Positions 13,336 through 40,807 of a DNA stretch of 64,000 bases are shown here, one piece after another. The first letter of the stretch is position 1. Each line of letters begins with the position of its first letter. Below the pieces are notes generated by a model, which was not told where the DNA came from, ran no database searches, and saw only the letters and a program-made list of their open reading frames with translations. Source of the stretch: an uncultured bacterium (GTDB taxonomy: Bacteria > Margulisbacteria > WOR-1 > CAVSGV01); contig CAVYHE010000006.1 in the NCBI GenBank assembly GCA_963768305.1, positions 10,692 to 74,691 of the forward strand, in the 5' to 3' direction. A program made the translations under genes and the position numbers.

Positions 13336-13388
13336 GCAACACATTATTATATTCCATAATAAGGAGGCGGGAGAACCCCGAAACCAAT

Positions 13389-13459
13389 CTGCCGGACTAG
13401 GATTCGAACCTAGATAGACAGATCCAGAATCTGTCGTCCTACCATTAGACGATCCGGCA
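13389..13459 (-). tRNA. tRNA-Gln (anticodon CUG)
   Basis: The reverse complement folds as a cloverleaf: acceptor UGCCGGA/UCCGGCA, anticodon arm ACAGA-UUCUGGA-UCUGU, T loop GGUUCGAAUCC. CCA is not encoded. Confidence 0.85.
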
Positions 13460-13483
13460 ATGATTCCATTTATTTGTCATTGG

Positions 13484-23495: not shown

Positions 23496-25640
23496 GGTGA
23501 GCGTAGGGAGCGGTTCCGGAACGATCACGCTGGCAGAAGACGCCGGCTCGATCGGAACGCTCAATATCGGTTCGGGCGGCGCCGCTGGATCCGTCGAAGC
23601 CGCGGGTATTACAGGAGGCTCAGGCGCCGCTATTCTTAACTTTGACCATAATGAGTCGGCGTATGTATTCGCGCCTGACATTGCCGGCTCACTCGGTGTT
23701 ACCCAGACCGGCAGCGGCACGACCATCTTAACAGGCACCAACATATATACAGGAGTTACAACGATCGATGCTGGAACACTCGAGGTTGGTGATGGTGGTA
23801 CAGCAGGCAGCCTTGGTACAGGTGATGTAACGGATAACTCGTCGCTGGTATTCAACCACAGTGATGATCTGACAGTGTCAAATGGGATCTCAGGTACAGG
23901 AACACTTACCCAGAACGGTTCAGATACTCTTGTCCTTACAGGCACAAACATATATACAGGAGCCACGATTGTCAACACAGGCACGCTTGAAGCGGGCGTG
24001 GTCGACGCGTTTGGCAGCAACTCGGCCGTGATAATGGCGGATGACGCGACTGCTATATTGGACCTTAATGATTTCGATACGCATATCGGTTCTCTCACAG
24101 GCGGCGGGACAACGGGTGGGAATGTAATGCTTGGTGCCGCGACCCTGACGGTTGGCGGTGATGATACAAGCCCGGCAGCCTATGCTGGAGAGATCTCCGG
24201 CACCGGTGCGCTGACCAAAACTGGCACAGGCACTCTTACTCTTACCGGTACCAACACATATACAGGTGTTACTACGATCAATGCGGGGACGCTCCAGATT
24301 GGTGACGGGGGAACATCAGGCAGCCTGGGTACAGGGGATGTAACGGATAACTCATCGCTGGTATTCAACCGCAGTGATGATGTGACGGTATCTAATGTTA
24401 TCTCGGGCACAGGGACACTTACCCAGAACGGCAGCGGGACAACCATCCTTACTGGTACCAACACATATACAGGAGTTACTACGATCGATGCGGGGACGCT
24501 CGAGGTTGGTGATGGTGGTACAGCAGGCAGCCTTGGTACAGGGGATGTAACGGATAACTCGTCGCTGGTATTCAACCACAGTGATGATTTGACAGTGTCA
24601 AATGGGATCTCAGGTACAGGAACACTTACCCAGAACGGTTCAGATACTCTTGTCCTTACAGGCACAAACATATATACAGGAGCCACGATTGTCAACACAG
24701 GCACGCTTGAAGCGGGCGTGGTCGACGCGTTTGGCAGCAACTCGGCCGTGATAATGGCGGATGACGCGACTGCTATATTGGACCTTAATGATTTCGATAC
24801 GCATATCGGTTCTCTCACCGGCGGCGGGACAACGGGTGGGAATGTAATGCTTGGCGCTGGGATCCTGACAGTCGGCGGTGATAATACAAGTCCGGCAGCC
24901 TACGCTGGTGAGATCTCCGGCACAGGGGCCCTGATTAAAACTGGCACAGGCACTCTTACTCTTACTGGTACCAACACATATACTGGAGTTACTACGATCG
25001 ATGCGGGGACTCTCCAGGTTGGAGATGGAGGGACAGCAGGGAGTCTAGGTACAGGGGATGTAACGGATAACTCATCGCTGGTATTCAACCGCAGTGATAA
25101 TGTGACGGTATCAAATGCTATCTCAGGTACAGGGGCGCTTACCCAAAACGGTACAGATACTCTTACTCTTACTGGCGCCAACACATATACAGGAGTTACG
25201 ACGATCGATGCCGGTACTCTCCAGGTTGGTGACGGTGGTACTACAGGCAGCCTGGGAACAGGTGATGTTACGGATAACTCCGCGCTGGTGTTCAACCACA
25301 GTGATGATTTGACGGTGTCTAATGCAATCTCAGGAACAGGGACACTTACCCAGAACGGCACAGATACTCTTATTCTTACTGGCACCAACACATATACGGG
25401 AGTTACGACGATCGATGCCGGAACGCTCGAGGTTGGTGATGGGGGTACAACAGGGAGTCTGGGTACAGGGGATGTAACGGATAACTCGTTACTGGTGTTC
25501 AACCACAGTAATGATTTGACCGTATCAAATGGGATATCAGGTACAGGGACACTGACCCAGAACGGCAGCGGGACAATAATCCTTTCCGGTGCCAGCTCAT
25601 ATACAGGAACCACTACCATCAACTCGGGGACATTGGATAT
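23495..25640 (+). repeat. PATR block 2, including a near-identical duplication with a 720-bp offset
   Basis: About 12 PATR motifs. Positions 23761-24140 and 24481-24860 align at an offset of exactly 720 bp, with roughly 225-bp stretches at 100 percent identity. Confidence 0.85.
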
Positions 25641-26254
25641 ACATCAAGATCGATCATTGACAGGAGACCTGACATTAGCAGGGGGCACACTGGAACTGGG
25701 AGCTAATACCCTGACAGAAACAGGCGTCTATACTCAAGGCGCGGGAACCGTCCTGAAACTTACCACCAACAGCACGACCAATTTTGGCAGGATAGTAAGT
25801 TCCAGCGATGCAACTGTTAATGCCGATAGCTCAGTGAATGTGACGGTAGGCAGTTATTTACTGAACGGCGCTGAATTTTCGATCATAGACGGCGCAGGCG
25901 GCACAGGCGTAAATGTCCCGGGGACGATCACTTCAAGCGATCATCGAATAATTTTCTCTGGCTTAAGCTTGGATGGCGACCTTATCTTAATTGCAAAGCG
26001 CCTCCAGACTAACTTTGCCGGGTTAGCCGATAATTCTAATGCCGCGGCCGTGGGCAAAGTTCTCGATCATATTACAAACCCCTCGAGCGATATGCAAACT
26101 GTCTTGTTTGTGCTCGAGAACCTAAGCGATTCCGATATACCCGCCGCGCTCGATACGTTGACGCCTGTTGTAGACTCGGGAGCTATAGATACGAGCACAA
26201 TATCGCTCAACAGCTTTGTCGGAGCCGCCCTCGATAGGATCGAAAACGGAAGCA

Positions 26255-27097
26255 AGGCGGACCCGATATGGGGTAAAGTTTACAGCAGTAATCTTACTCA
26301 AGGATCACAAAATGACATAGGGGGATTTAATGCATCCGACTCAGGCATGGTAATTGGCATTGACCGCCCGTTCACCGACACCCTGACCCTTGGCATGAGC
26401 GGCGGTTATGCGAACGGAAATGTCAACTCAAACGACAATAACGCAAAAACGAATATAGGCAGCACACAGCTCACCTTATACGGAGAATATCAGGACAAAG
26501 AACGCCCGTATTTTATCGATGCCGCCGGCTCTTTAGCATTGAACTCGTATAACGGCTCACGCCGCATCAGCGTAGGCTCCATATCCAGGAAAGCGGATTC
26601 CGAATATCCGGGTCTCCAGTATGGTGCTTACTTAGGAGGCGGGTACAAATTTCGATCTTGGGAACAAATTAGAGGTTACGCCGCTCTTATCGCTTCAGTA
26701 CAGCCATCTTTCTCTCGCAGACTATACTGAAACCGGAGCCGGGTCCATGAACTTGGATGTTTCAAGTCAGGACTATGATATGCTGCAGGCGGGCGTGGGC
26801 GCAAGGATAATCTACCCTGCCGAATTGCAGTGGTGCAACCTCACTCTCACAGGCCACGCAAAATTGCTCTATGACTTTGTCGGCGACAAAGTGGTGGTCA
26901 TATCGAAATTTACCGGCGGGGGCGGATCGTTCACCTCAGAGGGGGCCGATCTGATACGATGCAGCTTGAATGCCGGCGGCGAGCTTGTCTTCGACTTTAG
27001 GAACCATTTCTCTGTTATCGGAGATTGTAATTTGGAAACGGAAGATAATTTCCTCGGTATCAGCAGTTCGCTAACGGCGAGGTATGAATTTGAATAA
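26255..27097 (+). other. autotransporter beta-barrel translocator domain (~280 aa) of the giant gene
   Basis: Alternating beta-strand pattern: DPIWGKVYSS...GFNASDSGMVIGIDRPF...LTLGMSGGYANG...TQLTLYGEY. After the frameshift it continues LQYSHLSLADYTETGAGSMNLDV...GISSSLTARYEFE. Confidence 0.8.
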
Positions 27098-29594: not shown

Positions 29595-31564
29595 AGAAGA
29601 AATAAATAAACTGGAAGGGCCGATTGCGGTTTTTGGGGCGGGTGGATTTATCGGCGCTAACCTGCTCAGGACCATTCTTGAGGTCAGGGATGATTGTTTT
29701 GGGATTACCCACCAGAAATTCATTCCCTGGCGTCTTTCGGGGATCTCCGCAAAAAATATCATCTATGCCGACCTGAAACTTCCTTCAACCGTATCCGGGA
29801 TCTTTGACAAGTTTAATTTTAAAACTATCTTTAATTTTGCGGCTTACGGCGGCTACTCCAAACAGGACGACACGGACTTGATTTATAAGATCAACTTGCT
29901 CGGAGCAGTGGATCTTTTGGAAATAGCGGCGCGCCAAGGCTTTTCCGCCTATGTGCATGCGGGATCATCTTCTGAGTATGGGTTCAATGCCAGCGCACCC
30001 AAAGAAAGCGCCGAGCTAATGCCGAACAGCCATTATTCTGTTTCAAAGATCGCCACCGCTTCGCTTATGCGTTATCTTGGCCGCACAAAGGAACTGCCTG
30101 TCATTAATCTGCGCATTTATTCGGCTTATGGGCCTTACGAAGAGCCTGACCGGCTGATCCCGGTGATCCTTAAATGCGGGATGGAGGGCAAATATCCTTC
30201 GCTGGTAGATCCCGATATATCACGTGATTTTATTTATGTTCAGGATGTGGTTGAAGCTGCTGTATTGGCTGCGACGCTCGGCGTTAAAAAATTACCAGGC
30301 GGCTCCTTAAATATCGCCACCGGTAAAAAAACCACCATTAGAGAAGTTGCCCGGTTAATCAAGGAGATATTCAATCTTAAAGTTGAACCTAAATGGGGTA
30401 CGATGCCCAACAGGAGCTGGGATATCAGGGATTGGTACGGAGACCCTGCTTATGCCAAAGAGATATTGGGTTGGCAGGCAAAAACTTCTTTAAAAGACGG
30501 CTTGATCAAAACCATTGATTGGGTAAAGAGCCAAAAGGCCGCTCCGGATCTTATGGCCGCCGCTCCATTGGCCGTTCCTAAAAAAATATCGGCCGTCATT
30601 GCCTGCTACCGGGATGCCAAGGCTATTCCCATCATGCACGATCGACTAACCAAAGTATTCGCTCAAATGAAGGTGGATTATGAGATCATTTTTGTCAATG
30701 ACGCAAGCCCGGATAACACAGATGATGTGCTAAAGGAGATCACTGCTCAAGATGATCACGTTATTACCATTGAACACACAAGAAATTTTGGTTCTCAGAG
30801 CGCCTTCCTGAGCGGCATGCAGGTCTCTACCGGTGACGGGGTCGTACTCCTCGATGGCGACCTGCAGGATCCGCCCGAAATGATCCCTGAATTTTACAAA
30901 AAGTGGCTGGAGGGCTATGAGGTTATCTACGGCCGAAGAGTAAAGCGCGAGGTTTCCCGGATCTTAAATGTCTGTTACAGGGCTTTTTACCGGATCTTCA
31001 GGGGAATGTCATACGTGCCCATGCCTCTGGACGCCGGTGATTTCTCGTTAATGGACAGAAAAGTGGTCAACGAGCTTCTGGCCCTGCCGGAGACCGATCA
31101 ATTCTTGCGAGGACTAAGGGCATGGGTAGGGTTCAAACAAGTTGGAGTTGACTATATGAGACCCGAGCGGATGTTCGGCGTGACCACAAATAACTGGCAG
31201 AAAAATATCTGGTGGGCTAAAAAGGCCATCTTTTCCTTCAGTTTTGTCCCTCTGGAGTTGCTTAGTTATTTGGGTTTGCTGCTGACCGTAATTTCATTCC
31301 TGGCACTCATCGGGCAGATCATCGCGAGGATCTTCATGCCCAATATTCCTCAGGGCATTACCACCATTATCGTCCTTATTCTATTCTTTGGGGCCATACA
31401 ATTACTGGCCATTTCCATTATCGGCGAATACCTTTATAAAAATTTTCGAAGAAACCAAGAAAAGGCCAAAATTTATCCGCAAGTCAATTCGCCAGGGCAA
31501 TACTTACCTTACAGCCGGGGAGGAAATAAACAACTTTTTAGATCAAAGAAAAAACCGCGTTTAA
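29587..31564 (+). pseudogene. fused NAD-dependent epimerase/dehydratase and GT2 polyprenyl-phosphate glycosyltransferase (GtrB/ArnC-like); C-terminus frameshifted at an A5 run
   Basis: N-terminal half: GAGGFIGANL and YSVSK (YxxxK). C-terminal half: IIFVNDASPDNT, LDGDLQDPPE and two TM helices, then IGEYLYK. Dropping one A at 31438-31442 restores IFEETKKRPKFIRKSI and a stop at 31562-31564. As assembled, the ORF runs on into the next gene (track ORF 29587-31995). Confidence 0.75.
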
Positions 31565-31566
31565 TT

Positions 31567-32471
31567 ATGGCATACCAAATCAAACACTGCATTTTTTGCG
31601 GCAATAATGAAAAGCTCAAAGAGCTCTATCCCCGTAATTTTACCGATAAAGATCTAAACCCGGCCGTATTTTCGGCGCGCAGGGATACCGATCGTTTTCA
31701 TTATAAGATCGTGCGCTGTCAGAACTGCGGCTTGATATTTTCGAGGGAAGTTCTGCCGGAAGAAGAACTTTCACGGTTATATTCGCAAAGCGCAGTAACT
31801 TTTGATGAATATACCGCCATCATCCGCAGGGATTATTTGCGCCCCCTCAAGCCGTTTTTAGATCTGGTCAATAAAGGCTCGGCCCTCGAGATCGGCTGCA
31901 GCAGCGGATTTTTCCTCGAAGAGCTGTTAATGCAGGGATTTAAGGAAGTTCACGGCTGTGATCCCAGTCTGGAGGCCAAAAAAGGCAGACCCTGAGATCA
32001 AGGGGAAATATATCTTCCGGATTTTTCAAAAAAGGAGCCTACAAAGATAACAGTTTTGACCTTGTTTGCTCATTTCAAACTTTGGACCATCTGGACGATC
32101 CGGCTGGAACCGTAAGGACCTGTTATGAAATTTTAAAGCCGGACGGGCTCATATATTTTATCACCCATGATGCCAGACAGCCTTCAGGCGAAAATATTGC
32201 GGGATAGATCGCCGATAATAGACGTGGAACACATTTATTTATTCAATAAAATAACTTTAAGCCGTTTATTTACGGAGGCGAATTTTGCTGTTCTTAATGT
32301 TGGGGACATTAAGAACAGTTACCCTATCAATTACTGGCTAAGGCTGGCGCTTAAGAACGGCCGATCCGGTAATATTTTAAAATATGCCGTCGAAAGAACC
32401 GGCCTGGGCTAGCTTCTATCCCTATCGCCGCGGGAAATATTTTTGTGGTGGCGAGATGCAGAAAGAATTAA
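31567..32471 (+). pseudogene. class I SAM-dependent methyltransferase with an N-terminal Cys4 motif; at least 3 (probably 5) +1 frameshifts
   Basis: MAYQIKHCIFCGN...CQNCGLIF and LEIGCSSGFFLEEL (motif I). After frame corrections near 31984, 32007 and 32178 it reads SFDLVCSFQTLDHLDDPAGTVRTCYEILKPDGLIYFITHDA and then SLQAKILRDRSPIIDVEHIYLFN. The tail IPIAAGNIFVVARCRKN ends at 32469-32471. Confidence 0.6.
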
Positions 32472-34542
32472 TAATGACTGCCCGGGCTAAAATATACAAT
32501 TTCTTAAATAGATATTTACATAAAATAAACCTTGAGAATATTATTATCGGTATTTGTTTTTTGATTTTAGCGGTAAAGTTTTACTCGGTCGCAGGCAGAT
32601 TTTTAGACACGGACGAAGAATATTATTTTTACATTACCTCGGCAATAAGTAAAGGGGTGAATATATATGCGGAGCTGAATTTCTCTATTCGCCCATCCCA
32701 TGGTATCTCTGTTCCGTGTTTTTCAGGCTTTTCCATAATCTGTATCAATCACTCCTAACGATAAGATTGCTTATAATCTCCCTTTCCCTGCTGAGCTTTT
32801 TTCTGATCTTTGATATGCTGAAAAGACTAAGGGCCTCTTGGTTTGTGATCCCGGTCACATTCTTTATACTTTACTCTATGCAATTCAGCCTTAAATTAAT
32901 GGAATATCGATCGGACAACGTACTGTTCTTTGTGCTTATTTTACAGGGGTATCTGATGTTTTTAATGTCACAATATACGGCTTTCTCCCCTTTAAAAATC
33001 GCCGCTGTTATTTTCTTGGCTTTTCTCAGTTTTCATATCAACCAAAAAGCGATCATCATAGAACTGCCTTTGTTGTTCGCATTTTGCGTTTGCTTCTTTA
33101 ATGATTTAAGCGTTTCGTTCTGATCTATAAAAAAGCCCTGCTCTTTTTTGGCGCAATTATAATTGTTTGCCTGATCTTTTCCAGGAACTACCATCAATTC
33201 TTCTGTCAATCATATATTTACGGCCCTATTATGTTAAATCAATTTTCGAAGATATCCCCTTCGGCTTCCTTTGTCAATAATCTTAATCTTTTGATCCCAT
33301 TTATTAAGGATAACTTGGCGTTTTAAATTCATCGGCTTGATCTCATCAATAGTTCTTTTACTTGCTCTAAAAACAATAAAAATTACCTGGTGCCGCTCAT
33401 GTTCTTGGCAGGGGCTGTGGTTTTAGTTTTAATAGCGCCTTTCCCTTTCATACACTATCAAGCTTATTGCGTTTGGGCCGTCTTGTTCTCACTCCTTTAC
33501 CTGATCAGCATCTGCATTAATTCCTGGCCCCATCGTAAAATATTGCTTTTCGTTATTTTCTTTCTGTTAGCTGCCAGCGGGGCTCTTACATTTCAGCGTT
33601 ATGAATTTCCTTTTCAAAATCTAAAAGGATACGCCACTGAAATTGACCATATGAGGAATAATCGGGGAAAACAAACTTGCTTCTTTTGGTGGATCGTCCA
33701 TTAACATCGAAAGTGACTTTCCGCTCTGGAGCGGGGAGCTTCAATTTGTGTATGGCACTAAAGCCCTTCAAACCAACACTGCAAGAACTACTTTAAAGGA
33801 TAAAGCGACTAAATTTGTTTTTATTGATCCGCGCAAAATATCGAAAAGACCCTTTATGGCGAAGACGGCTATTTTATAAAAGCTAATTATCAAAAATGTC
33901 ATGGCTTGCCTCTCATGATCGCTTCTAAATGGGCTTATCTTGGCCCTGGACAACGGACAATCAACATTGAAATTGCCGGCAAGTTCAAGGTTATGCCATT
34001 TTCAAATATATCCAATTCGATCACTCTGGATAACTATAAGCTAAAAAGCTTTCAGACCTTGTACCTGAAACAAGGGCCGCATTCTATTAAATCTGCCCTG
34101 CCAGCAGCTTTATTAATTGAGTTTGATTCAGCAAAGATCAACTCCGAAAGTTTTGATAATTTAAATGGTTCAAAATATCAATTTATACAGTACAATCAGG
34201 ATTTTTCAGGAAAATTCGAACTTTTAGGGGCAATTAAATACGAAAAATCCGGCAAGGCCTTTTATCGATTCTTTTGGAAAGCACTATCAGATATCAATGA
34301 TGGACTAATGGCATTTCATCATTTTTACGGCAGCGGAGGCAATTATATTAACGGTATAAATGTAGATCCAACGGATGGCTGGTTGACTCAGAGCTTTAAA
34401 AAGCGGTGAAGTAATTTCCTACGAGTTCTCAGTGGTTCTGAATAAAGAATATAAGTCCATGGATATCGGCTGGTATTATGAGCAAGAATGGAGCAGACGG
34501 ATACCATGCGGGGCAGGGACTTTTTACAGGATGTATATCTGA
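32456..34542 (+). pseudogene. GT-C-fold (ArnT/PMT-like) membrane glycosyltransferase candidate, heavily fragmented
   Basis: AT-rich. The pieces 32456-32758, 32716-33123, 33390-33704, 33906-34409 and a tail to 34542 are colinear in different frames. An N-terminal TM helix is followed by a DTDEEYY loop and many TM segments, then a soluble C-terminal domain. Family assignment is by architecture only. Confidence 0.45.
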
Positions 34543-34576
34543 TCTTCTGATATACTAATGGTTGATAATCTGCTAA

Positions 34577-34643
34577 GGCCCTATCGTCTAGTGGTTAGGA
34601 CAGCGCCCTCTCAAGGCGTAAACACGGGTTCGACTCCCGTTAG
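34577..34643 (+). tRNA. tRNA-Glu (anticodon CUC), 5' 67 nt only; the 3' acceptor strand is replaced by element sequence
   Basis: GGCCCUA-UC-GUCUAGUGGUUAGGAC-A-GCGCC-CUCUCAA-GGCGU-AAAC-ACGGG-UUCGACU-CCCGU-UAG, then UUCU, which cannot pair with GGCC. The arms closely parallel E. coli tRNA-Glu. Confidence 0.8.
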
Positions 34644-36102
34644 TTCTATTAAACTGGTTTTTGAAGCATGTTTCATTTGTAATTGCTCGAAGATAGGCGA
34701 AAATCTAGCGGTCCCAAACTTCTCTCCATCAAAAGCTATTCCTTCTGGAAATACCAAACTTTGGAACCTTTGCCTTAGGTCTAGCCCGGCGTTTGCCCAG
34801 AGGTTTGCTATATTTCCCATAAAAGCTTTGCAATAGTTTAAGCAGGATCCAACGTCATTGAGTTCGATCTTGGTTTCGTTCAACTCAGTTCTTTTAACAA
34901 TTATATCGTTATTAATATCTTCAATTTTTCTTTTGTAAGTTGCTTCATCAAAAGTCCCTTTGATGATCAACTCATCAAGCCTATCCTTCTTTTCTTCCAA
35001 AGCTTTAAGTTCTTTTTCAAGTCTGTATTCTTCTTTTATTTGTTCCGCTTGCTTATTTTTCCATACATCTAGGACAATAGCCTCGAATAAATTGAGGATG
35101 TCCGCGCTAGGTTGAATTGACTTCAAGAGTTCATAAAAACTCGTCTCCAAGGCCTCTTTTTTGACATATAACGAGCAACCCTTGGTTCTGCAATGATAAT
35201 AGGCGTATTTGTTCTTTCTGCCCTTTGACCAGCTTCCCGTTAGCTTTTTTTCGCATTTTGAACATTTAACAAAGTTTCTAAGAGGAAAGTCAGGGTTGCT
35301 CCTTACTCTTGGAGCAAAAGATGGTCTTTTACCATCAAGAAGAAGTTGAACTTTATAAAACGTATCTTTTGATATTATAGCCTCATGTATAGCTTCTATC
35401 ATATCCAGCGAGTAAACCTTGATAAGTCCAGCATATAGAGGGTTGCGAAGAATCTTCTTCAGCTTATTTTCGGTCAGCTCTTTATATCCTTGCTTTCTCA
35501 ACATATTAACAATATCAACTTGTCTATATAAGCCGGTCTCTGCGAGTTTGAATATCTCTTTAATGTATTTACTTTCCTGAGAAGGGATAAGCATCAGCTC
35601 TTTTATTATCTATAGATCGGGCATAGCCTTTTGGGACACGAAAAACCCAGCGACCTTGCAATAATGCTTCTTTCATGCCCTTTGTAGTTCTTTCTCCTCT
35701 TATTTCATTTTCATATTGAGATACAGCTCCGAGAATACTTCTAATAGCTCTCCCGGAAGGCGTATTATCATTATTTTCAGTTACCGATAATACATTAAGG
35801 CCATAACTACTTAATTTATTAATAAGTTCAAGATGATCGGTGAGGTTTCTTGCTAAACGGTCATATTTCCAGATGATCAAAGCAGATAATTGTTTTTTGT
35901 TTTCAAAAGAATATTTAAGCAACTTAATAAGCTCCGGCCTATCCTGAGTTTTTGCGCTCTCGCCGCGCTCAATAAAAAGCCTGTCAACCTCATATCCTTT
36001 ATTAAGAGCGAATTCTTTACAGTCTTTTTCTTGTGCCTCAAGACTATAGCCTTGTTCGGCCTGTTCTTTAGTTGAAACTCTGCAATAGATAATAGCCTTC
36101 AT
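34611..36102 (-). pseudogene. large serine recombinase (integrase), single +1 frameshift
   Basis: The N-terminal ORF 35569-36102 has MKAIIYCRVSTKEQ (catalytic Ser) and the resolvase domain. ORF 34611-35594 has the recombinase domain, a zinc ribbon CSKCEKKLTG...YYHCRTKGC and a coiled coil. The junction is repaired by removing one base from the run at 35601-35604. Confidence 0.85.
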
Positions 36103-36208
36103 TGGTTAACCTTTGTTGTTATTCCAAAACGAACCCAATTATTGGGTATTGGAGATATTTACATCCAAGCTCCCCGGTATAGGAATATTATATCTGATCG
36201 TTTTGCCG

Positions 36209-36672
36209 TTAAACGTTCAAGTTCAGTATTAGAGTTTTAATGATAAGGTTTAAGGTTGAAGTTTTATACTTTTGAAACTTTTCAAGCACCTCAATTGAAT
36301 TCCTGGCAATTTGGGGCTTATAACCTTCTTTTGTCATAAAACTGCCAAGATCCTTCAAGGAAAGAGCCTGTTATAGTTGGATCTGATTCCAACTTAATAT
36401 ACTCATTTTCAATAAAGCATATCCTCCGATAGACTAATAAGTTTGAAAGAACAATTTCAACTAATTGGCTTTCATAAGTATTCTCAGGTTGATAATATTC
36501 GTAGATTCTTCACAAAAGTCTTTGCTTTCAAGCTTATCATAGTCATTTACGATCTGCTGAAAAGGCCAAATTTCAAAGCATTCATTCTACTGATCAATTT
36601 TCCCTCATCGGTCTTAACCCCGCCCATTAAGGCATTTTGTTTATTTGCTTCTATTTGTTTTTCGGTTGTCAC
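36209..36672 (-). pseudogene. hypothetical element protein, fragmented over three frames
   Basis: AGGAGA SD plus GTG at 36672 gives MTTEKQIEANKQNALMGGVKTDEGKLISRMNALKFGLFS. It continues in other frames with YYQPENTYESQLVEIVLSNLLVYRRICFIENE and SIEVLEKFQKY. The pattern recalls a widespread uncharacterised family. Confidence 0.3.
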
Positions 36673-36811
36673 TACTATTTCTCCTATTATTAATATATTC
36701 GCTAACAGTTATCTCGGCTACTTTATATAAGCGATCTCTTATTTCTTCAATGTCTTTATCAGAATACTTAGAACCTTTAAGGTGTTTCCTGCATTGCTCT
36801 ATCGTAAACAC
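36641..36811 (-). CDS. small hypothetical protein (56 aa)
   Basis: AAAAGGAG SD plus GTG at 36811 gives VFTIEQCRKHLKGSKYSDKDIEEIRDRLYKVAEITVSEYINN. Below the ORF-track size cutoff. Confidence 0.3.
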   Translation of the reverse strand: MFTIEQCRKHLKGSKYSDKDIEEIRDRLYKVAEITVSEYINNRRNSSDNRKTNRSK

Positions 36812-36994
36812 GGCCCGACTCCTTTTGTATAGAGTTCGGGTTCATGCCGATACTTACTACATTTAATGTTTTATGTTGTTTCGAGTGCTTCTTGAAAACT
36901 TACACTTTTATTCTTTCTTCTTGACTTATGCTAACTTTTTTCCCTGCTCTTGTAATAATAGATATTTTTTGATAATTCTTTTGATCTAATAAAT

Positions 36995-37833
36995 TCAATA
37001 TTTCCTTGTCAGTAAATTCTCCTCTTTCCATGAAGTTGCTTTTATGTTTATTTCTTCATTATCGGTTTTCATAATTGTTATTTCTTGATACTCTTTATTT
37101 CTAATAATATCTATTATATTCTTTTCTTGTTCGGTTAAATGGTTCCTGAATAGGTCGGATATTGTTGAGCCGTCGCGTATTTTAATGTTTATGTTTCCAT
37201 ATTGCTTTGCAAGGGTATCTGCATACCAGAAAAAGGGGAGGACTATTAAAGGAGAACCGCAATAGTCAAACTTGGCATTAAACGCGACAAAGTCACGTTC
37301 AACCAGAAACATGGAATTATCTTCTTCGTCTATTGAAAGAATAATTTTTTCGCCGCATAAGCTTGCTAAGGTACAATATTCCAGTTGTTTAATATTCTCT
37401 TCCTCATTTTTTTGCTCTTTTAGGCGATGCAGTTGAATTTCTCCGCTAGAATGTTCAATTCGATATAAGCCTACTTTCTCGTTAGCAATTTTATGAAGAA
37501 CATTCTTAATTTTATCGATGGGGCATCCAATTTTCCTAAGGTCAGTTATTATAAGTAGTTTGATGATGTCTATCGCTAAAATTTGCGCCACCCAGACTCG
37601 GTATTTTCTCTTGATCCTGATATTATGTCTTTTGCATCCCAGTCATTTATCTTACGATAGGTTAAGTCGCTAACGATAGTTTGAGAGTTTTTTAGGGTAA
37701 ATATCGCCTCGTGAAAGTCATCAAATATTTGTTGAGAAAGCTTATAGTGCTCTGACAAATAAGTATCGAGTTTTCTGTTATTGTAATATAGTTCTATAAG
37801 AAATTTTCTTAGATCAAGTTTTTCGGCACTCAT
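36995..37833 (-). pseudogene. MerR-like HTH protein; two overlapping ORFs (37576-37833 and 36995-37591) that look like one gene
   Basis: Across the junction the sequence reads LTYRKINDWDAKDIISGSRENTESGWRKF / AIDIIKLLIITDLRKIGCPIDKIKNVL. This follows the MerR pattern (wing, then xxR-Y/F-S, then a helix ending LRxxG). The frame offset is -1, unlike the other breaks. Confidence 0.45.
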
Positions 37834-38022
37834 AATTTATACCATCAAGTATAATTCTATCACCCAGCAATTATACCGTCAAGTTCAATTTACAGCTATG
37901 CCGGGTAGGAATAAGGCCTAATTTCTCTCTGCTTGCTCTCTGTTCGCTCGTTGTTCGCTCGGTGTTCAACCAGTCTATTAAGAGCTTTTTGCCGCCCTTT
38001 TCTCGCGCTTCGTCCACGCTTC

Positions 38023-38205
38023 TTAATTACCTGTAATCTCGGCTTGGCATATTCTTGCTATAATACCTATGAAGCAACCTAGGCATACAAAGCCTACTCC
38101 TACAGTTGCTTGAGTTAATTCATTAAGTCCATAGACAACAGCAAATATTGCCAAAATAATAAGCAAATAATAGAACCCTTTTTTTACTGCCAGTCCCACA
38201 TCCAT
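38023..38205 (-). CDS. small membrane protein (60 aa), hypothetical
   Basis: The internal ATG at 38205 is preceded by AAAAAGGGGTGA. Two hydrophobic helices. Confidence 0.45.
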   Translation of the reverse strand: MDVGLAVKKGFYYLLIILAIFAVVYGLNELTQATVGVGFVCLGCFIGIIARICQAEITGN

Positions 38206-38227
38206 CTTATTCACCCCTTTTTTTTTA

Positions 38228-38392
38228 TTATTCTTTTTCGGCCGCCAAAGCCCATACAAAAGCAATAACCCAACCGATAAATGTCCATCCTAACAGAATA
38301 TTAAGCGCGACGATCCCAGCACCCCCTTTTTTGCCTATAGCGCAAAGTGAGGGCAGAAAATAAATAAACAAGCCTATTATTAAAAGAACCAT
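38228..38392 (-). CDS. superinfection-immunity (Imm_superinfect-like) small membrane protein, 54 aa
   Basis: Not in the track (under 60 aa). MVLLIIGLFIYFLPSLCAIGKKGGAGIVALNILLGWTFIGWVIAFVWALAAEKE matches the YFLP...LNxxLGWTxxGWxxAxxWA family pattern. Confidence 0.6.
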   Translation of the reverse strand: MVLLIIGLFIYFLPSLCAIGKKGGAGIVALNILLGWTFIGWVIAFVWALAAEKE

Positions 38393-38416
38393 AGCCTCGC
38401 TCTCCTTCTAGTTTAA

Positions 38417-38842
38417 TTATTCTGTTGAAGCGTTGCCGTAATCTTCCTCATGATCCAATTGCCCATTATCGTAATAGTATTTCCATAGACCAACTTCTCT
38501 TCCTTTAATATACTTTCCTATATCCTTTAATTGCCCATTCTCATAATAGGACTTACATAAACCATCCAGCAAACCATCGATATAATTCTCCCTTGTTTCC
38601 AATTGACCATTATAATAGTAATACACCCATATCCCCTCATTTTCGCCATTCACATACTTACCTTTTGTTTCCAATAGGCCATTTTCATAATAATATATCT
38701 GAAGACCATCAGGCATACCATCCTCAGTAACTTCATGATATTCTCGTATCTGCCCATTCTCATAGTAGGACTTTTCCACTTTTGCAAAAGATGGGCCTGT
38801 TAAAATAAGCATTAAGAACATTGCAAAAATTATCTTTTTCAT
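38417..38842 (-). CDS. secreted MORN-variant repeat protein (YwqK-like)
   Basis: Signal peptide MKKIIFAMFLMLILTGPSFA, then five or six repeats of YYENGQLxxxGxYxxGxxxGxW. Confidence 0.75.
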   Translation of the reverse strand: MKKIIFAMFLMLILTGPSFAKVEKSYYENGQIREYHEVTEDGMPDGLQIYYYENGLLETKGKYVNGENEGIWVYYYYNGQLETRENYIDGLLDGLCKSYYENGQLKDIGKYIKGREVGLWKYYYDNGQLDHEEDYGNASTE

Positions 38843-38912
38843 TGTTCAATTCCTCATTTTTCGTGCTGGTTTTATGCTAACAACACAAAGTCTTTATTAC
38901 CTTTCTTGTTTC

Positions 38913-39101
38913 TTATCCTTTAACGTAGTACCAGACGCTTAACGCTATCATCCCGACATAGACATATCCACTTATGCTGGGAGCTATCATTATCGCAAGG
39001 ATCCACCCGAAGCATATCGTGAACCACATCAGCCCGCCACGCCATTGCGCCCTTTTCTGCGCCCTGAATACTCCTTTCGTTATATCTTCTATGTCTGTCA
39101 T
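38913..39101 (-). CDS. small membrane protein (62 aa), hypothetical
   Basis: GAGGAGG SD upstream. Two TM helices. The competing overlapping ORF 38920-39108 lacks these features. Confidence 0.45.
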   Translation of the reverse strand: MTDIEDITKGVFRAQKRAQWRGGLMWFTICFGWILAIMIAPSISGYVYVGMIALSVWYYVKG

Positions 39102-39122
39102 AAAACACCTCCTCTTATTTGT

Positions 39123-39356
39123 TTATAATGTTATATTTTTGACCATGGATCGAGCCAAAAAACTTTTTTCTCGTTGTTCTTTCGTTGTTAGAAAGCGACT
39201 CGTAAGGCTAATTTTTCTTTTTTCGGTCTTTGTTTGATCATGCCCAAGAGGGTCATTTTGGAAGCTTAAAATGTCTATTTTCTCACGCTTCACTCGAGCT
39301 TCATTGAGAAAAGAAGAAGAGGCGATCTTGCGTTTATGCCTTACGCCGTTCCCCAT
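39123..39356 (-). CDS. basic hypothetical protein (77 aa), divergent from the XRE gene
   Basis: Lys/Arg-rich ORF starting 71 bp from the XRE start on the opposite strand, a cro/cI-like layout. Coding status is uncertain. Confidence 0.3.
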   Translation of the reverse strand: MGNGVRHKRKIASSSFLNEARVKREKIDILSFQNDPLGHDQTKTEKRKISLTSRFLTTKEQREKSFLARSMVKNITL

Positions 39357-39427
39357 AGGGAACTACTTTACCATCAAAAAATAATAATATCAAAGCCGTT
39401 CTTTCTGGGGAACGGGGGCTTAAAAAG

Positions 39428-39631
39428 ATGGTCAAAAATGAAATCGGGATGAGGATAAAACAGTTAAGAGAACAAAAAGGGTTGACGATCGAAAAATTAG
39501 CCTACGAAAATGACCTTGCAAAAGGCAATTTAAGCGAAATTGAAAAGGGGTTAATTGATCCTAGACTTTCAACTCTTGAGAAGATAGCAAAGGGCTTGGA
39601 TGTAAAATTAAAAGAACTTCTCGACTATTAG
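39428..39631 (+). CDS. XRE-family helix-turn-helix transcriptional regulator
   Basis: IGMRIKQLREQKGLTIEKLAYENDLAKGNLSEIEKG is a classic HTH_3 motif; 67 aa. Confidence 0.8.
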   Translation: MVKNEIGMRIKQLREQKGLTIEKLAYENDLAKGNLSEIEKGLIDPRLSTLEKIAKGLDVKLKELLDY

Positions 39632-39915
39632 CGACTTAATTGCAGATACATTTTCTCTAACCTCATAGAGATCGGAGAGCCATCATTCAATTGAGTGATG
39701 TTTTCTACGTCATCCCCACATTTAGCACATGTTCCCATAATGGCAACATTGCGCTCCTTATCAATATAGATCTTATAGTCTTTTACTGTTGCAAGGAAGC
39801 ATTTGTCGCAAGATGTATATTTAAGAATATTTGGGAAGTTTATGAAGGCATCCTGCATTATCTCTTCAAGCTGTTTAAGGTTGATCTCCCGCTGATCTGG
39901 TTTTTGAACATACAT
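39628..39915 (-). CDS. hypothetical protein with a CxxC...CxxC motif (95 aa)
   Basis: SCDKC ... CAKCG suggests a zinc ribbon. Converges on the XRE gene with a 4-nt overlap. Confidence 0.4.
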   Translation of the reverse strand: MYVQKPDQREINLKQLEEIMQDAFINFPNILKYTSCDKCFLATVKDYKIYIDKERNVAIMGTCAKCGDDVENITQLNDGSPISMRLEKMYLQLSR

Positions 39916-40172
39916 ACCAATACCCCCTGCCTCCGTCTTACATGCGTATTATTCTCTTGATAGAAGGCGAGGAATTATACGCCCGCGATATATGACAATG
40001 CAAGGGTTTGCAGTATCTATCTTCTCTACGGAGCTACTTTCCATAAAACAAATTCATCTATTCTACAATTCCAATACCAATAGGGATGTCTTATATTAAA
40101 CTGCCGGGGCCAATTCTCTTAATTTGTATATGGCCATGAGGTCGTTTATAATATGGTTCCAATTTGAATGTA

Positions 40173-40184
40173 TTAGGGCTGCCA
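40173..40184 (+). other. detached 3' end of tRNA-Glu: TTAG core plus GGCU (nt 69-72), G73 and CCA
   Basis: TTAGGGCTGCCA. GGCU pairs with the 5' G1-C4 (G1:U72 wobble, three G:C pairs). G is the usual bacterial tRNA-Glu discriminator, and it is followed by an encoded CCA. Confidence 0.7.
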
Positions 40185-40228
40185 ACTCGCTTCGTTCGGT
40201 TTGACTTTGACATAATGAAAGTTATAAT

Positions 40229-40807
40229 ATGTCTGCAATTCAATTTATAGGAGGAATTTATGAAAAGATTCTTATCGGTCTCGGAATTCTGGTCGTTATT
40301 ATCGTGATCGGCGCCCTCGTTTACTGCTCTTACATCGGGATGTTCACGAAGATCAATATTACTGAAGAACAAATGGGACCGTTCTATTTCGTATACGCAC
40401 CATATAAAGGTGATTATGCGAAGGTCGGCCCGACCATGGATAAGGTCCGCGCAAGACTTGAAAGCGAATTCGGCATAAAGCCGATGAGAGCCATGGGCAT
40501 ATATTACAGCGATCCCAGATCTGTCAAAACCGCAGACTTGAAGGCCGACGTGGGATTTTTGCTGGAAAAGTCATATGAAACCCTGGCCGATTCAATAATG
40601 AAAAAAATGTGGGTCAGGATAATGTTCCAGAAAAATTACATGGTCGCGGAGTTTCCCATGAAGAACAAAACATCCATTATGGCGGGAATTATGAAGGTCT
40701 ATCCGGAAGTCACTAAATACATGAAGCTCAAAGGCTACAAACCCGTTCCTGCCATAGAGATCTACGAAAAAGACAGGATCATATACGCTTTCGAAATAAA
40801 GCAATAG
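40229..40807 (+). CDS. membrane-anchored GyrI-like (SRPBCC/AraC effector-binding-like) domain protein
   Basis: N-terminal TM helix, then PFYFVYAPYKGDYAKVGPTMDKV...AIEIYEKD, which resembles GyrI-like small-molecule-binding domains. The start is uncertain: a strong SD (AGGAGGA) serves an out-of-frame ATG at 40260. Confidence 0.6.
   Translation: MSAIQFIGGIYEKILIGLGILVVIIVIGALVYCSYIGMFTKINITEEQMGPFYFVYAPYKGDYAKVGPTMDKVRARLESEFGIKPMRAMGIYYSDPRSVKTADLKADVGFLLEKSYETLADSIMKKMWVRIMFQKNYMVAEFPMKNKTSIMAGIMKVYPEVTKYMKLKGYKPVPAIEIYEKDRIIYAFEIKQ

What the first reader, a model, noticed from the sequence alone, without database searches (positions are those of the whole stretch)
34577..40184. tRNA-Glu(CUC) gene split in two by a 5.5-kb serine-recombinase element, with the missing 3' end 5,533 bp downstream
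The cloverleaf is intact from G1 (34577) through the T arm to ..CCCGUUAG (34643). The sequence then turns into TTCTATT, which leaves two C:U mismatches against the 5' acceptor strand GGCCCUA.

The missing piece follows a second TTAG at 40173-40176: GGCU (nt 69-72), the discriminator G73 and an encoded CCA. Joining 34643 to 40177 gives a canonical 75-nt tRNA-Glu. The intervening DNA is AT-rich and opens with a large serine recombinase gene that abuts the left junction.

Serine integrases exchange strands at a 2-bp core and do not duplicate target sequence. So, unlike the usual tyrosine-integrase tRNA islands, the tRNA is not regenerated here. It is broken while the element is integrated and would be restored by excision. 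That is the logic of the skin/sigK or phage/comK 'active lysogeny' switches, but with a tRNA as the interrupted gene, which I have not seen described.
Basis: partly seen in the sequence, partly recalled or inferred. Interest (0 to 1): 0.78.

Follow-up and report, generated by a model that had tools for sequence, protein, structure and literature searches.

The report
Serine-integrase island in a tRNA-Glu gene
A 5.5-kb mobile element with a serine integrase sits in the 3' end of a glutamate tRNA gene; its relatives rebuild the tRNA when they insert, so the broken tRNA seen here is most likely a mis-assembled or decaying copy and not a genetic switch.

Summary
The sequence observation is correct. 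A tRNA-Glu(CUC) at 34577-34648 has two C:U mismatches in its acceptor stem and no CCA. Its proper 3' end (TTAG|GGCTGCCA) lies 5,533 bp downstream, and deleting 34644-40176 gives a perfect 75-nt tRNA. Between the two pieces lies a low-GC element whose large serine recombinase (LSR) gene runs antisense 33 nt into the tRNA.

The "split tRNA as a reversible switch" reading is not supported. A second assembly of the same locus (L121, flanks 98.5% identical) has the same element with an intact LSR and an intact tRNA. The element carries its own copy of the tRNA 3' end, which gives a 13-bp direct repeat. Two more distant elements show the same repeat. At least 86 of the 120 closest LSRs end in a tRNA-antisense tail that still encodes CCA.

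The window differs from L121 by four bases in that copy. It also differs by 22 other short bursts of changes, which break the LSR, two other element genes and a host gene. That pattern indicates a noisy consensus or decay, not design.

The family itself is notable. attP lies inside the LSR reading frame, so integration swaps a conserved 25-aa tail for 9 residues encoded antisense by the tRNA.

The parts
34577..34648 (+). tRNA-Glu(CUC) at the left junction (attL). Positions 1-68 are identical to the intact gene; the 3' acceptor strand is damaged (TTCT instead of GGCT) and there is no CCA.
   Evidence: ARAGORN. Rfam scores 55.4 bits here against 66.4 bits for the intact L121 copy. The minimum-energy fold is not a cloverleaf.
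34640..34652 (+). attL copy of the 13-bp repeat. It reads TTAGTTCTATTAA here and TTAGGGCTACCAA in L121. The substitutions are at 34644, 34645, 34649 and 34650.
   Evidence: Alignment with L121. The DNA is 100% identical for more than 50 nt on either side.
34611..35594 (-). C-terminal part of the LSR gene (recombinase domain, zinc ribbon, coiled coil). Its last 9 codons (TGVEPVFTP) are antisense to the tRNA T arm.
   Evidence: Pfam PF07508 and PF13408. It is 97% identical to residues 171-498 of P0002.
35569..36102 (-). N-terminal part of the LSR gene (resolvase catalytic domain, with R8 and S10).
   Evidence: Pfam PF00239, E=1.4e-38. It is 100% identical to residues 1-167 of P0002.
35595..35600 (.). 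A 2-nt gap plus 3 substitutions relative to L121, which put the LSR gene out of frame.
36142..36672 (-). Remains of a 177-aa backbone gene that is intact in L121 and fragmented here.
   Evidence: tblastn hits fall in two frames. Indels lie at 36193-36554.
36641..36811 (-). 56-aa backbone ORF of unknown function, conserved next to the LSR in relatives.
   Evidence: 100% identical to the L121 product. It has the same position in L207 and L209.
36903..37833 (-). MerR-like HTH backbone gene, 309 aa in L121. Here it is spread over three frames.
   Evidence: tblastn. A weak MerR_1 hit is recorded for the homologues.
38023..39101 (-). Cargo genes: an 80-aa membrane protein, a superinfection-immunity protein (38228-38392), a MORN-repeat protein (38417-38842) and a 62-aa membrane protein.
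   Evidence: Pfam PF14373 (E=1.2e-12) and PF07661 (E=4.3e-18).
39428..39631 (+). Cro/C1-type HTH regulator.
   Evidence: Pfam HTH_3, E=2.9e-11.
39628..39915 (-). 95-aa ORF of unknown function, also present in L121.
   Evidence: 94.6% identical to the L121 product.
40096..40173 (-). Detached 'tail exon' of the LSR gene. In the excised circle it continues the ORF in frame with IHSNWNHIINDLMAIYKLRELAPAV*.
   Evidence: Reconstructed junctions of four elements, compared with free-form relatives.
40147..40172 (+). P arm of the attachment site at the right junction. It contains GGTTCCAA at 40155-40162, 18 nt before the repeat.
   Evidence: Conserved in L120, L121, L209 and L122. In attB the corresponding T-loop motif GGTTCGAC lies 13 nt before the repeat.
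40173..40185 (+). attR copy of the 13-bp repeat (TTAGGGCTGCCAA). It is the displaced native 3' end of the tRNA: nt 65-72, G73 and CCA.
   Evidence: The native 3' flank is conserved with L120.

Best explanation
What it is: 34644-40176 is a small integrative element, about 5.5 kb. It carries an LSR, a conserved three-gene backbone, a Cro/C1-type regulator and superinfection-immunity-type cargo. It belongs to a large uncharacterised LSR family that targets tRNA-Glu genes.

How the family works (shown by comparison):
- attP lies inside the 3' end of the integrase reading frame.
- attP contains a 9-13-bp copy of the tRNA's 3' end (acceptor 3' strand, discriminator and CCA).
- Recombination with the tRNA gene pushes the host's own 3' end to the far junction (attR). 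The element's copy takes its place, so the tRNA stays intact.
- Integration also replaces the integrase's conserved 25-aa C-terminal tail with about 9 residues read antisense from the T arm.

Inferred steps: the crossover probably lies in GG/GC of the acceptor 3' strand. This LSR works like other LSRs on 40-50-bp sites.

The broken tRNA in this window is secondary and not part of the mechanism. Four bases of the element-borne copy differ from the otherwise identical sister locus. They form one of 23 short bursts of differences that also break the LSR, two backbone genes and a neighbouring host gene.

I judge consensus error in a strain-variable stretch of a long-read metagenome assembly the likeliest cause (about 0.5). 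Genuine decay of an immobilised copy comes next (about 0.3). Either way there is no evidence of a reversible switch.
For: The element and its ends:
- In-silico excision restores the tRNA.
- L121 is the same element at the same site, with a 13-bp repeat, an intact tRNA (66.4 bits) and an intact 498-aa LSR.
- L120 has a 9-bp repeat and L209 a 12-bp repeat, both with an intact tRNA-Glu(CUC).

The LSR gene spans attP:
- Joining attR-left to attL-right in the window, L121, L120 and L209 always continues the LSR ORF in frame into a homologous tail, consensus WNQI(L/I)x(D/E)(L/M)xxI(F/Y)K(L/F)(K/R)(D/E)L.
- Relatives not next to a tRNA have the same tail. One of them is a phage contig, seen in two samples, with tail and lysis genes on both sides of the LSR gene.
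- The tail is predicted to be a helix (residues 495-509, pLDDT about 77).

The family:
- 2164 hits at E<=1e-20.
- 86 of the 120 best end in a tRNA-antisense tail whose preceding codon pair contains TGG, the complement of CCA.
- The window's LIEL is the only exception among 140 proteins.

LSR membership: Pfam domains. The predicted fold matches serine-integrase, Bxb1, phiC31 and LI structures at E of 1e-19 to 1e-11 and has a long coiled coil.

Site anatomy:
- A GGTTC motif lies 18 nt before the repeat in attP and 13 nt before it in attB. That is the 5-bp shift described for LSR sites (PMC3783163).
- The summed dyad centre falls 5-7 nt into the repeat (P about 0.003).

The damage is secondary:
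- Of 96 differing columns against L121, 82 lie in 23 bursts and only 5 are isolated substitutions.
- At every LSR site that can be polarised, the window departs from residues conserved across the family.
- There are frame breaks in the host 697-aa gene, the 309-aa gene and the 177-aa gene.
- A probable 1-nt loss lies at the start of gene B.
Against: - The rest of the window has long intact ORFs (3648 aa at 15784-26730, and the ATP synthase operon). Any noise would therefore have to be local.
- The four changes (GG>TT and CC>TT) carry no indel. They hit the probable crossover dinucleotide and the CCA, which could reflect selection or a real event.
- L121 is itself a short contig with at least one split gene (MORN), so it is not a perfect reference.
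- The right-hand 1.4 kb of the two elements really does differ (78-93% identity). The two copies are therefore not simple clonal descendants.
- No reads were available. No free circle or empty site of this particular element was found.
- The crossover position and the function of the tail are inferred, not shown.
Confidence: 0.75

Rival explanations
1. Genuine decay or lock-in. After integration, real mutations changed the element-borne tRNA 3' end, including the probable crossover dinucleotide GG>TT, and broke the integrase. The element can then no longer excise, and tRNA-Glu(CUC) is permanently lost. The loss would be tolerated if a tRNA-Glu(UUC) elsewhere in the genome reads GAG.
For: - As it stands, the sequence has two C:U mismatches, no CCA and a non-cloverleaf minimum-energy fold.
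- The LSR, the 309-aa gene and the 177-aa gene are all out of frame.
- Fragmentary LSR genes of this family occur in other MAGs (P0122-P0134).
- The four changes carry no indel.
Against: - Real decay at about 1.5% divergence should give scattered single substitutions. Here only 5 of 96 differences are isolated substitutions and the rest come in bursts.
- A host gene next to the tRNA is broken in the same manner.
- The allele exists only in this one contig.
- The presence of another tRNA-Glu could not be checked.
Confidence: 0.3
2. The element is designed not to regenerate the tRNA, so tRNA-Glu(CUC) is off while the element is integrated and is restored by regulated excision. This would be an 'active lysogeny' switch with a tRNA as the interrupted gene.
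For: - Excision at TTAG would rebuild a perfect tRNA.
- LSR-driven switches exist for protein genes (skin/sigK, SPbeta/spsM, comK; my own knowledge).
- tRNA-disrupting integration exists for tyrosine integrases (PMC10865867).
Against: - The sister copy and the whole family regenerate the tRNA.
- The recombinase is out of frame here.
- If the crossover is at GG/GC, attL (TT) and attR (GG) no longer match, and excision would fail.
- There is no element-borne tRNA to compensate.
- No empty-site or circle sequences were found.
Confidence: 0.04
3. A natural attP variant. Part of the element population carries TTCTATTA instead of the tRNA mimic. Such a variant integrated independently here and truly disrupted the tRNA.
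For: - LSR strand exchange needs only a matching central dinucleotide, so a mimic-less attP could still integrate if the crossover is within TTAG.
- The right-hand part of the element differs from L121 (78-93% identity). This shows that the two copies have different histories or have recombined.
Against: - The DNA is 100% identical for more than 50 nt on both sides of the four changes.
- No other family member lacks the mimic.
- The dyad centre is not in TTAG.
Confidence: 0.05
4. Coincidence. TTAGGGCTGCCA at 40173 is a chance match, and the element ends elsewhere.
For: None beyond the short length of the match.
Against: - 0.02 matches are expected by chance.
- L121, L120 and L209 have the same architecture.
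- The LSR ORF continues in frame across the reconstructed junction into a conserved tail.
Confidence: 0.01

Closest known systems
Dehalococcoides ssrA genomic islands with the serine recombinase DsiB (McMurdie et al. 2011, PMC3146451)
   Same: - A large serine recombinase gene lies on the reverse strand next to attL.
- The target is the 3' end of a tRNA-like gene, which is rebuilt.
- A short direct repeat (20 bp) of that 3' end marks the far boundary.
- The paper notes an ssrA direct repeat at the attL position embedded in a dsiB homologue on a marine fosmid.
   Different: - The target there is tmRNA (T loop); here it is tRNA-Glu (acceptor 3' strand).
- Those islands have a second small recombinase, DsiA, and ParB and Mom genes, none of which is present here.
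- A conserved C-terminal tail exchanged on integration was not described there.
Thermotogota group 1 proviruses (MPV1, MCV1 and others) inserted next to tRNA-Glu, with serine recombinases (10.1101/2020.11.07.368316)
   Same: The integrase is a serine recombinase, the insertion is next to a tRNA-Glu gene, and specificity for the tRNA was hypothesised.
   Different: - Those are full-size proviruses in Thermotogota.
- att sites, the overlap of the integrase gene with the tRNA, and the 3'-end mimic are not described in the passages read.
- No deposited phage has an LSR more than 32% identical to this one.
Classical tyrosine-integrase tRNA islands (the Islander signature; PMC4383910)
   Same: The signature is the same: a tRNA gene, an island with the integrase next to it, then a displaced tRNA 3' fragment. 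attP carries a piece of the tRNA so that integration restores it.
   Different: - The recombinase family and mechanism differ: a serine recombinase with a 2-bp staggered double-strand exchange.
- The repeat is only 9-13 bp.
- That paper states that serine recombinases were not known to target tRNA genes.
LSR-mediated gene-interruption switches (skin/sigK, SPbeta/spsM, phi10403S/comK)
   Same: A large serine recombinase element sits inside a gene, and precise excision would restore the gene.
   Different: - In those systems the interrupted gene is really split by design, and excision is developmentally or environmentally regulated.
- Here the family restores its target, and the only broken copy has a broken recombinase.
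- This comparison rests on my own knowledge of those systems and was not tested.
tRNA-dependent lysogeny of mycobacteriophages (Guerrero-Bustamante & Hatfull 2024, PMC10865867)
   Same: attB overlaps a tRNA gene, and in that system the tRNA is not reconstructed. This is a precedent for tRNA disruption by integration.
   Different: - That system uses a tyrosine integrase.
- The phage carries a replacement tRNA of the same isotype. No tRNA lies inside 34644-40176.
Archaeal 'suicidal' SSV-type tyrosine integrases (PMC8371274)
   Same: The att site lies within the integrase gene, and the target is a tRNA gene, so integration changes the integrase gene itself.
   Different: - Those are tyrosine recombinases and are archaeal.
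- Integration splits the gene into two large parts. Here only the last 25 codons are exchanged.
A118/LI, SPbeta, Bxb1 and phiC31 serine integrases (solved structures)
   Same: - The domain order is the same: resolvase domain, recombinase domain, and zinc ribbon with a coiled-coil insert.
- The outer DNA motif shows the same 5-bp shift between attP and attB.
   Different: - Identity is at most 32%, over about 62% of the length.
- Those enzymes target protein-coding or intergenic sites.
- Their attP is not inside their own reading frame, as far as I know.

Membership tests
Large serine recombinase (serine integrase) | N-terminal resolvase-type catalytic domain with the catalytic serine | tested here: met
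   PF00239, E=1.4e-38. R8 and S10 are invariant or nearly so in the family alignments.
Large serine recombinase (serine integrase) | Recombinase domain followed by a zinc ribbon with a coiled-coil insert | tested here: met
   PF07508 and PF13408. The AlphaFold model of the relative P0036 has long helices at 336-383 and 389-414. Foldseek matches full-length integrase structures at E of 1e-19 to 1e-11.
Large serine recombinase (serine integrase) | One continuous, translatable gene | tested here: not met
   The window copy is in two frames, with a 2-nt gap at 35599/35600. The feature is met in L121 (P0002, 498 aa) and in L120.
Large serine recombinase (serine integrase) | Short imperfectly symmetric att sites, with the outer motif 5 bp closer to the centre in attB than in attP | tested here: met
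   GGTTC lies 18 nt before the repeat in attP and 13 nt before it in attB, in four elements. The summed dyad signal over six attP sites has P of about 0.003. The rule comes from PMC3783163. This is consistent with the feature but is not biochemical proof.
Large serine recombinase (serine integrase) | A recombination directionality factor for excision | not tested
   No candidate was identified. The conserved backbone genes (MerR-like, 56 aa, about 177 aa) have no informative family hits.
tRNA-gene islands that restore their target (Islander signature) | An intact tRNA gene at the integrase-proximal end | tested here: not met
   The window has two C:U mismatches and no CCA. The feature is met in L121, L120, L208 and L209-211.
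tRNA-gene islands that restore their target (Islander signature) | A displaced 3' fragment of the same tRNA at the far end | tested here: met
   40173-40185. The same is seen in L121, L120 and L209.
tRNA-gene islands that restore their target (Islander signature) | A tyrosine-family integrase | tested here: not met
   The integrase is a serine recombinase.
Regulated gene-integrity / active-lysogeny switch | The target gene is non-functional while the element is integrated | tested here: inconclusive
   This is true of the window sequence as given. It is not true of the sister locus or of the family, and it may be an assembly error.
Regulated gene-integrity / active-lysogeny switch | A functional recombinase able to excise the element | tested here: not met
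   The LSR is frameshifted. attL and attR differ at the probable crossover dinucleotide.
Regulated gene-integrity / active-lysogeny switch | Evidence of excision (empty site or circle junction in the population) | not testable with these tools
   No reads were available. A pattern covering attL and attP of this element found nothing in viral or JGI metagenome contigs.
tRNA-dependent lysogeny | [quoted passage not shown] | tested here: not met
   ARAGORN and Rfam find no tRNA within 34644-40176.
Dehalococcoides ssrA-GI type island | An LSR next to attL, with the repeat of the target's 3' end embedded in the LSR gene | tested here: met
   The LSR stop codon is 33 nt inside the tRNA, and the repeat encodes the residues LVAL or LIEL.
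Dehalococcoides ssrA-GI type island | Target ssrA; companion small recombinase DsiA with a ParB/Mom module | tested here: not met
   The target is tRNA-Glu. There is no second recombinase and no ParB or Mom hit among the element's ORFs.

The most novel reading that the evidence does not exclude
The conserved arrangement could be a built-in state sensor. The LSR gene spans attP, so the free element makes an integrase with a conserved helical 25-aa tail. The integrated element makes one that ends in 9 residues encoded antisense by the tRNA T arm. If the tail biases the enzyme towards integration, or its loss silences or re-tunes the enzyme, directionality would be coupled to integration state without, or in addition to, a separate directionality factor. 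This would be a bacterial serine-recombinase counterpart of the archaeal 'suicidal' integrases, operating in a family of more than 2000 members that targets tRNA-Glu. A weaker add-on: the window copy is a real natural knock-out of the tRNA mimic, locked by a mismatch at the crossover dinucleotide.
Probability: 0.2. Interest if true: 0.65.

Novelty: new member of a known kind. Interest (0 to 1): 0.4.

Why it matters
The specific claim, a tRNA used as an on/off gene by a serine-integrase element, would have been new, but the evidence does not support it.

What remains is smaller but real:
- A large, uncharacterised family of serine integrases in uncultured bacteria inserts into tRNA-Glu genes. 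Named relatives come from Omnitrophota, Scalindua and Desulfobulbaceae MAGs. A curated-island paper stated that serine recombinases were not known to do this (PMC4383910).
- These elements reach the same result as tyrosine-integrase islands, restoring the tRNA, by carrying a 9-13-bp mimic that strand exchange itself should not need.
- Their attP sits inside the integrase gene, so the enzyme's C-terminus depends on integration state.

This gives a compact, predictable attB (a tRNA 3' end) for possible integrase tools, and a testable idea about directionality control.

The case is also a caution. In long-read MAGs, a 'broken' gene at a mobile-element junction needs read-level confirmation.

Tried and rejected
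- **Genome scan with the T-arm 21-mer.** Only L112 was informative, and the window's own contig was not returned.
- **Search for attL or attP of this element** with AAACTGGTTTTTGAAGCATG in viral contigs and JGI metagenomes. No hits.
- **The search for related loci with the family alignment in viral contigs.** It returned only distant LSRs of at most 35% identity, because the patterns chosen were generic catalytic motifs. These were not analysed.
- **The search for related loci with P0002 in metagenomes.** One irrelevant locus.
- **Exact look-ups of window proteins to find the source or sister strains.** Nothing turned up except a 500-nt contig for ATP synthase c. P0121 shows only that the window's contig is a single 101,285-bp record.
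- **A methylation-motif basecalling artefact.** All three GGCWACC sites of L121 are altered in the window, but 12 such sites elsewhere in the window are intact, about the number expected. A genome-wide artefact is therefore rejected and the coincidence remains unexplained.
- **Short-patch gene conversion from a diverged relative as the source of the bursts.** The window variants do not match L120 or other family members.
- **A programmed frameshift in the LSR.** Rejected because the sister copy is a plain continuous ORF.
- **Crossover at the TA of TTAG.** My first hand alignment favoured it. The systematic dyad scan favours a centre 5-7 nt into the repeat.
- **Family searches for the backbone genes.** PHROGs and NCBIfam gave nothing useful.

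Full report
**1. Observation**

ARAGORN finds two tRNA genes in the window. They are tRNA-Gln(CUG) at 13388-13460 (minus strand) and tRNA-Glu(CUC) at 34577-34648.

The tRNA-Glu is canonical up to ...CCCGTTAG (34643). It then reads TTCTATTA. This leaves C3:U70 and C4:U69 unpaired, and there is no CCA. Rfam's tRNA model still scores it at 55.4 bits but flags the two non-standard pairs.

TTAGGGCTGCCA occurs once in the window, at 40173-40184, where 0.02 matches are expected by chance. Removing 34644-40176 yields a 75-nt tRNA-Glu with seven acceptor pairs, G73 and CCA.

The interval is 32-40% GC, against 44-53% to its right.

**2. Content of the interval**

On the minus strand, starting at the tRNA, lies a large serine recombinase (LSR) gene in two frames:
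- 35569-36102, the resolvase domain (E=1.4e-38);
- 34611-35594, the recombinase domain and zinc ribbon.

Its stop codon lies 33 nt inside the tRNA, so its last nine residues (TGVEPVFTP) are the antisense translation of the T arm.

The rest of the element holds:
- small ORFs of unknown function;
- a superinfection-immunity protein (PF14373);
- a MORN-repeat protein;
- a Cro/C1-type HTH regulator.

There is no tRNA gene inside the element.

**3. The same locus in another assembly**

A scan of one genome per species with the T-arm sequence brought in L112/L120. This is a 1.77-Mb MAG chromosome with an identical 67-nt tRNA 5' part, about 72% DNA identity in neighbouring genes, and a homologous 498-aa LSR that is intact.

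A protein search with that LSR returned P0002. Its 8.7-kb contig, L121, aligns to window 31432-40191. Identity is 98.5% in the left flank, 100% in the tRNA 5' part, 98.4% in the LSR gene, 92% in the middle of the element and 78% in its right-hand part.

In L121 the left junction reads CCCG-TTAGGGCTACCAA-ACTGG, which is an intact tRNA scoring 66.4 bits. The right junction reads TGTA-TTAGGGCTACCAA-CTCACT. The element is therefore flanked by a 13-bp direct repeat of the tRNA's 3' end.

The window differs at the left junction by exactly four bases (G>T at 34644 and 34645, C>T at 34649 and 34650). The DNA on both sides is otherwise identical for more than 50 nt.

**4. The family**

The LSR belongs to a family with 2164 hits at E<=1e-20. 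Of the 120 best:
- 86 end in ...L(V/A)xx(T/R)G(F/V/L)EP... This is the antisense reading of a tRNA 3' half. The L-V/A codon pair contains TGG, the complement of CCA.
- 5 carry a different tail instead: ...WNQILQD(M/I)xNIF(E/K)(L/F)...

Where DNA context could be fetched:
- The first kind abuts an intact tRNA-Glu(CUC) (L120, L121, L208, L209-211).
- The second kind is not next to any tRNA. One example is a phage contig, recovered from two samples, with tail, amidase and RusA genes on both sides of the integrase gene (L123/L124). This is the unintegrated form.

For the four integrated elements with both ends available (window, L121, L120, L209), I joined the right-junction left arm to the left-junction right arm. 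In every case the LSR reading frame continues in frame into a homologous 25-residue tail:
- IHSNWNHIINDLMAIYKLRELAPAV
- IRANWNQIITELMSIYKLRELAPAI
- TDSSWNQIVQELENIFKFKDLVRVA

This fixes the element's ends independently of the tRNA argument. It also shows that attP lies inside the integrase gene. The detached tail exon in the window is 40096-40173 on the minus strand. An AlphaFold model of the free-form relative P0036 shows the usual LSR domains with a long coiled coil and predicts the tail as a helix (residues 495-509, pLDDT about 77). Foldseek matches it to serine-integrase, Bxb1, phiC31 and LI structures.

**5. Site anatomy**

- The repeats are 13 bp (L121), 9 bp (L120) and 12 bp (L209). They always start at the last T-stem base and run towards CCA.
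- In attP a GGTTCCAA motif starts 18 nt before the repeat. In attB the T-loop GGTTCGA starts 13 nt before it. A 5-bp inward shift of the outer (zinc-ribbon) motif in attB is the published rule for LSR sites (PMC3783163).
- A dyad-symmetry scan of six independent attP sequences peaks 5-7 nt into the repeat, at TTAGG|GC|TACCA. The summed score is 54, against a null maximum of 44 +/- 2.7 (P about 0.003).

The crossover is therefore more likely at GG/GC of the acceptor 3' strand than in TTAG. This is an inference and has not been shown. The bases to the right of the crossover (CTACCA) are supplied by the element. They are what keeps the tRNA intact.

**6. Why the window copy looks broken**

Over 31480-38000 the window and L121 differ at 96 alignment columns:
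- Only 14 are isolated, and 9 of those are single-base indels.
- The other 82 lie in 23 short bursts of 2-8 changes, often with small indels.

The four-base change at the tRNA 3' end is one such burst.

In the LSR gene every burst removes a family-conserved feature: LNRIL>LKKIL, SWLPD>YSL-D, the frameshift, and LVAL>LIEL. L121 agrees with the family at each of them.

Relative to L121, frame breaks also affect:
- the 309-aa MerR-like gene;
- the 177-aa gene;
- the host's 697-aa membrane-protein gene to the left of the tRNA.

The start of gene B, to the right of the element, appears to be one A short. It has a strong promoter at 40201-40228 and an RBS plus ATG at 40261, but the ATG is out of frame.

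The near-absence of scattered single substitutions is not what evolutionary divergence or ordinary pseudogene decay looks like. It is what a poorly supported consensus looks like in a strain-variable stretch of a long-read metagenome assembly. L121 and L120 come from an assembly with Flye-style contig names.

Against this, the rest of the window has long intact ORFs, and the four changes carry no indel.

A genome-wide methylation artefact was considered and rejected. The LIEL allele exists only in the window's own contig. Without reads the question cannot be settled. I put consensus error at about 0.5, real decay or lock-in at about 0.3, a natural mimic-less attP variant at about 0.05 and a designed switch at about 0.04.

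**7. Mechanism**

Shown by comparison:
- This is an LSR element specific for tRNA-Glu.
- Its attP sits inside the integrase ORF.
- It carries a tRNA 3'-end mimic that restores the gene.
- The host 3' end is displaced to attR.
- The integrase tail is exchanged on integration.

Inferred:
- The crossover dinucleotide.
- Binding of the zinc-ribbon domain to the GGTTC motif.
- Any role of the tail or of the conserved backbone genes (about 300-aa MerR-like, 56 aa, 155-186 aa) in directionality.

In the window as written, excision would be blocked twice: by the frameshift, and by TT against GG at the probable crossover. Lack of an encoded CCA alone would not inactivate the tRNA, because the window's tRNA-Gln gene also lacks it.

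**8. Comparison with what is known**

- The Islander paper states that serine recombinases were not known to target tRNA genes (PMC4383910).
- There are nevertheless precedents. Dehalococcoides ssrA islands have the LSR DsiB next to attL, a 20-bp repeat of the tmRNA 3' end, and an ssrA repeat embedded in a dsiB homologue (PMC3146451). Thermotogota proviruses sit next to tRNA-Glu and carry serine recombinases (10.1101/2020.11.07.368316). A minority of tRNA-integrating tycheposons carry an LSR.
- Integration that destroys a tRNA is known for tyrosine integrases, with a phage tRNA as replacement (PMC10865867). No such replacement exists here.
- att sites inside the integrase gene are known for archaeal 'suicidal' tyrosine integrases (PMC8371274).
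- No deposited phage has an LSR more than 32% identical to this family. The closest solved structures by sequence are resolvase-type catalytic domains and the A118/LI integrase C-terminal domain.

I therefore file the element as a new member of a known kind. It is not a new kind of switch.

**9. Verdict**

Interest is moderate (0.4). It rests on the family's architecture rather than on the broken tRNA.

Noticed in passing
window 15784-26730 (+): A single 3648-aa open reading frame. It was not examined. Its integrity shows that most of the window is free of frameshift errors.
   Followed up: no
window 32456-34539 (+): The host gene to the left of the tRNA encodes a 697-aa membrane protein in L121. 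In the window it is spread over at least four frame segments. The stretch is also low in GC (35-41%).
   Followed up: partly
window 40201-40270: Gene B (GyrI-like) has a near-consensus promoter (TTGACT, 16 nt, TATAAT) and an RBS plus ATG at 40261. That ATG is out of frame by one base (ATGAAAAG here, against ATGAAAAAG in L120). This is probably the loss of one base from a homopolymer.
   Followed up: partly
window 34537-40228 compared with L120 5364-11564: The whole cassette (tRNA promoter, tRNA, element, displaced 3' end and about 25 nt of native 3' flank) is inverted relative to gene B between the two genomes. The left neighbours also differ: the 697-aa gene here and NAD synthase in L120.
   Followed up: partly
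L122 1-6944: An unintegrated-form LSR (P0036) lies next to a type I-B-like CRISPR-Cas gene set (Cas6, Cas3, Cas8b, Cas4/Cas1 fusion). This may be a free element carrying CRISPR-Cas.
   Followed up: no
L207 11430-11560: This family LSR abuts only the 3' half of a tRNA-Glu(UUC); the 5' half is missing. The island carries a type I restriction-modification system.
   Followed up: no
L121 1-20: The contig ends 7 nt beyond the right-junction repeat. The assembly graph therefore breaks at the att site, which may reflect alternative junctions in that sample.
   Followed up: no
window 38417-38842 compared with L121 1250-1676: The MORN-repeat gene is one 141-aa ORF in the window but is split into 77-aa and 71-aa ORFs in L121. 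L121 is therefore not error-free either.
   Followed up: partly
window 34644, 35407 and 40177: All three GGCWACC sites of L121 are altered in the window, although 12 such sites elsewhere in the window are intact. This was noticed post hoc and remains unexplained.
   Followed up: partly
window 36254-36311 (+): A weak match to the Na+ riboswitch aptamer model (23 bits, against a cut-off of 40.5). It is also present in L121 and is probably a chance match.
   Followed up: no
window 36641-37833; L120 8185-9885; L209 3162-4774; L207 3402-4558: A conserved backbone lies next to the LSR in several relatives. It consists of a MerR-like HTH protein of about 300 aa and a protein of about 56 aa, plus in most of them a protein of 155-186 aa. 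None has an informative family hit. They are candidates for a directionality factor or for replication.
   Followed up: partly
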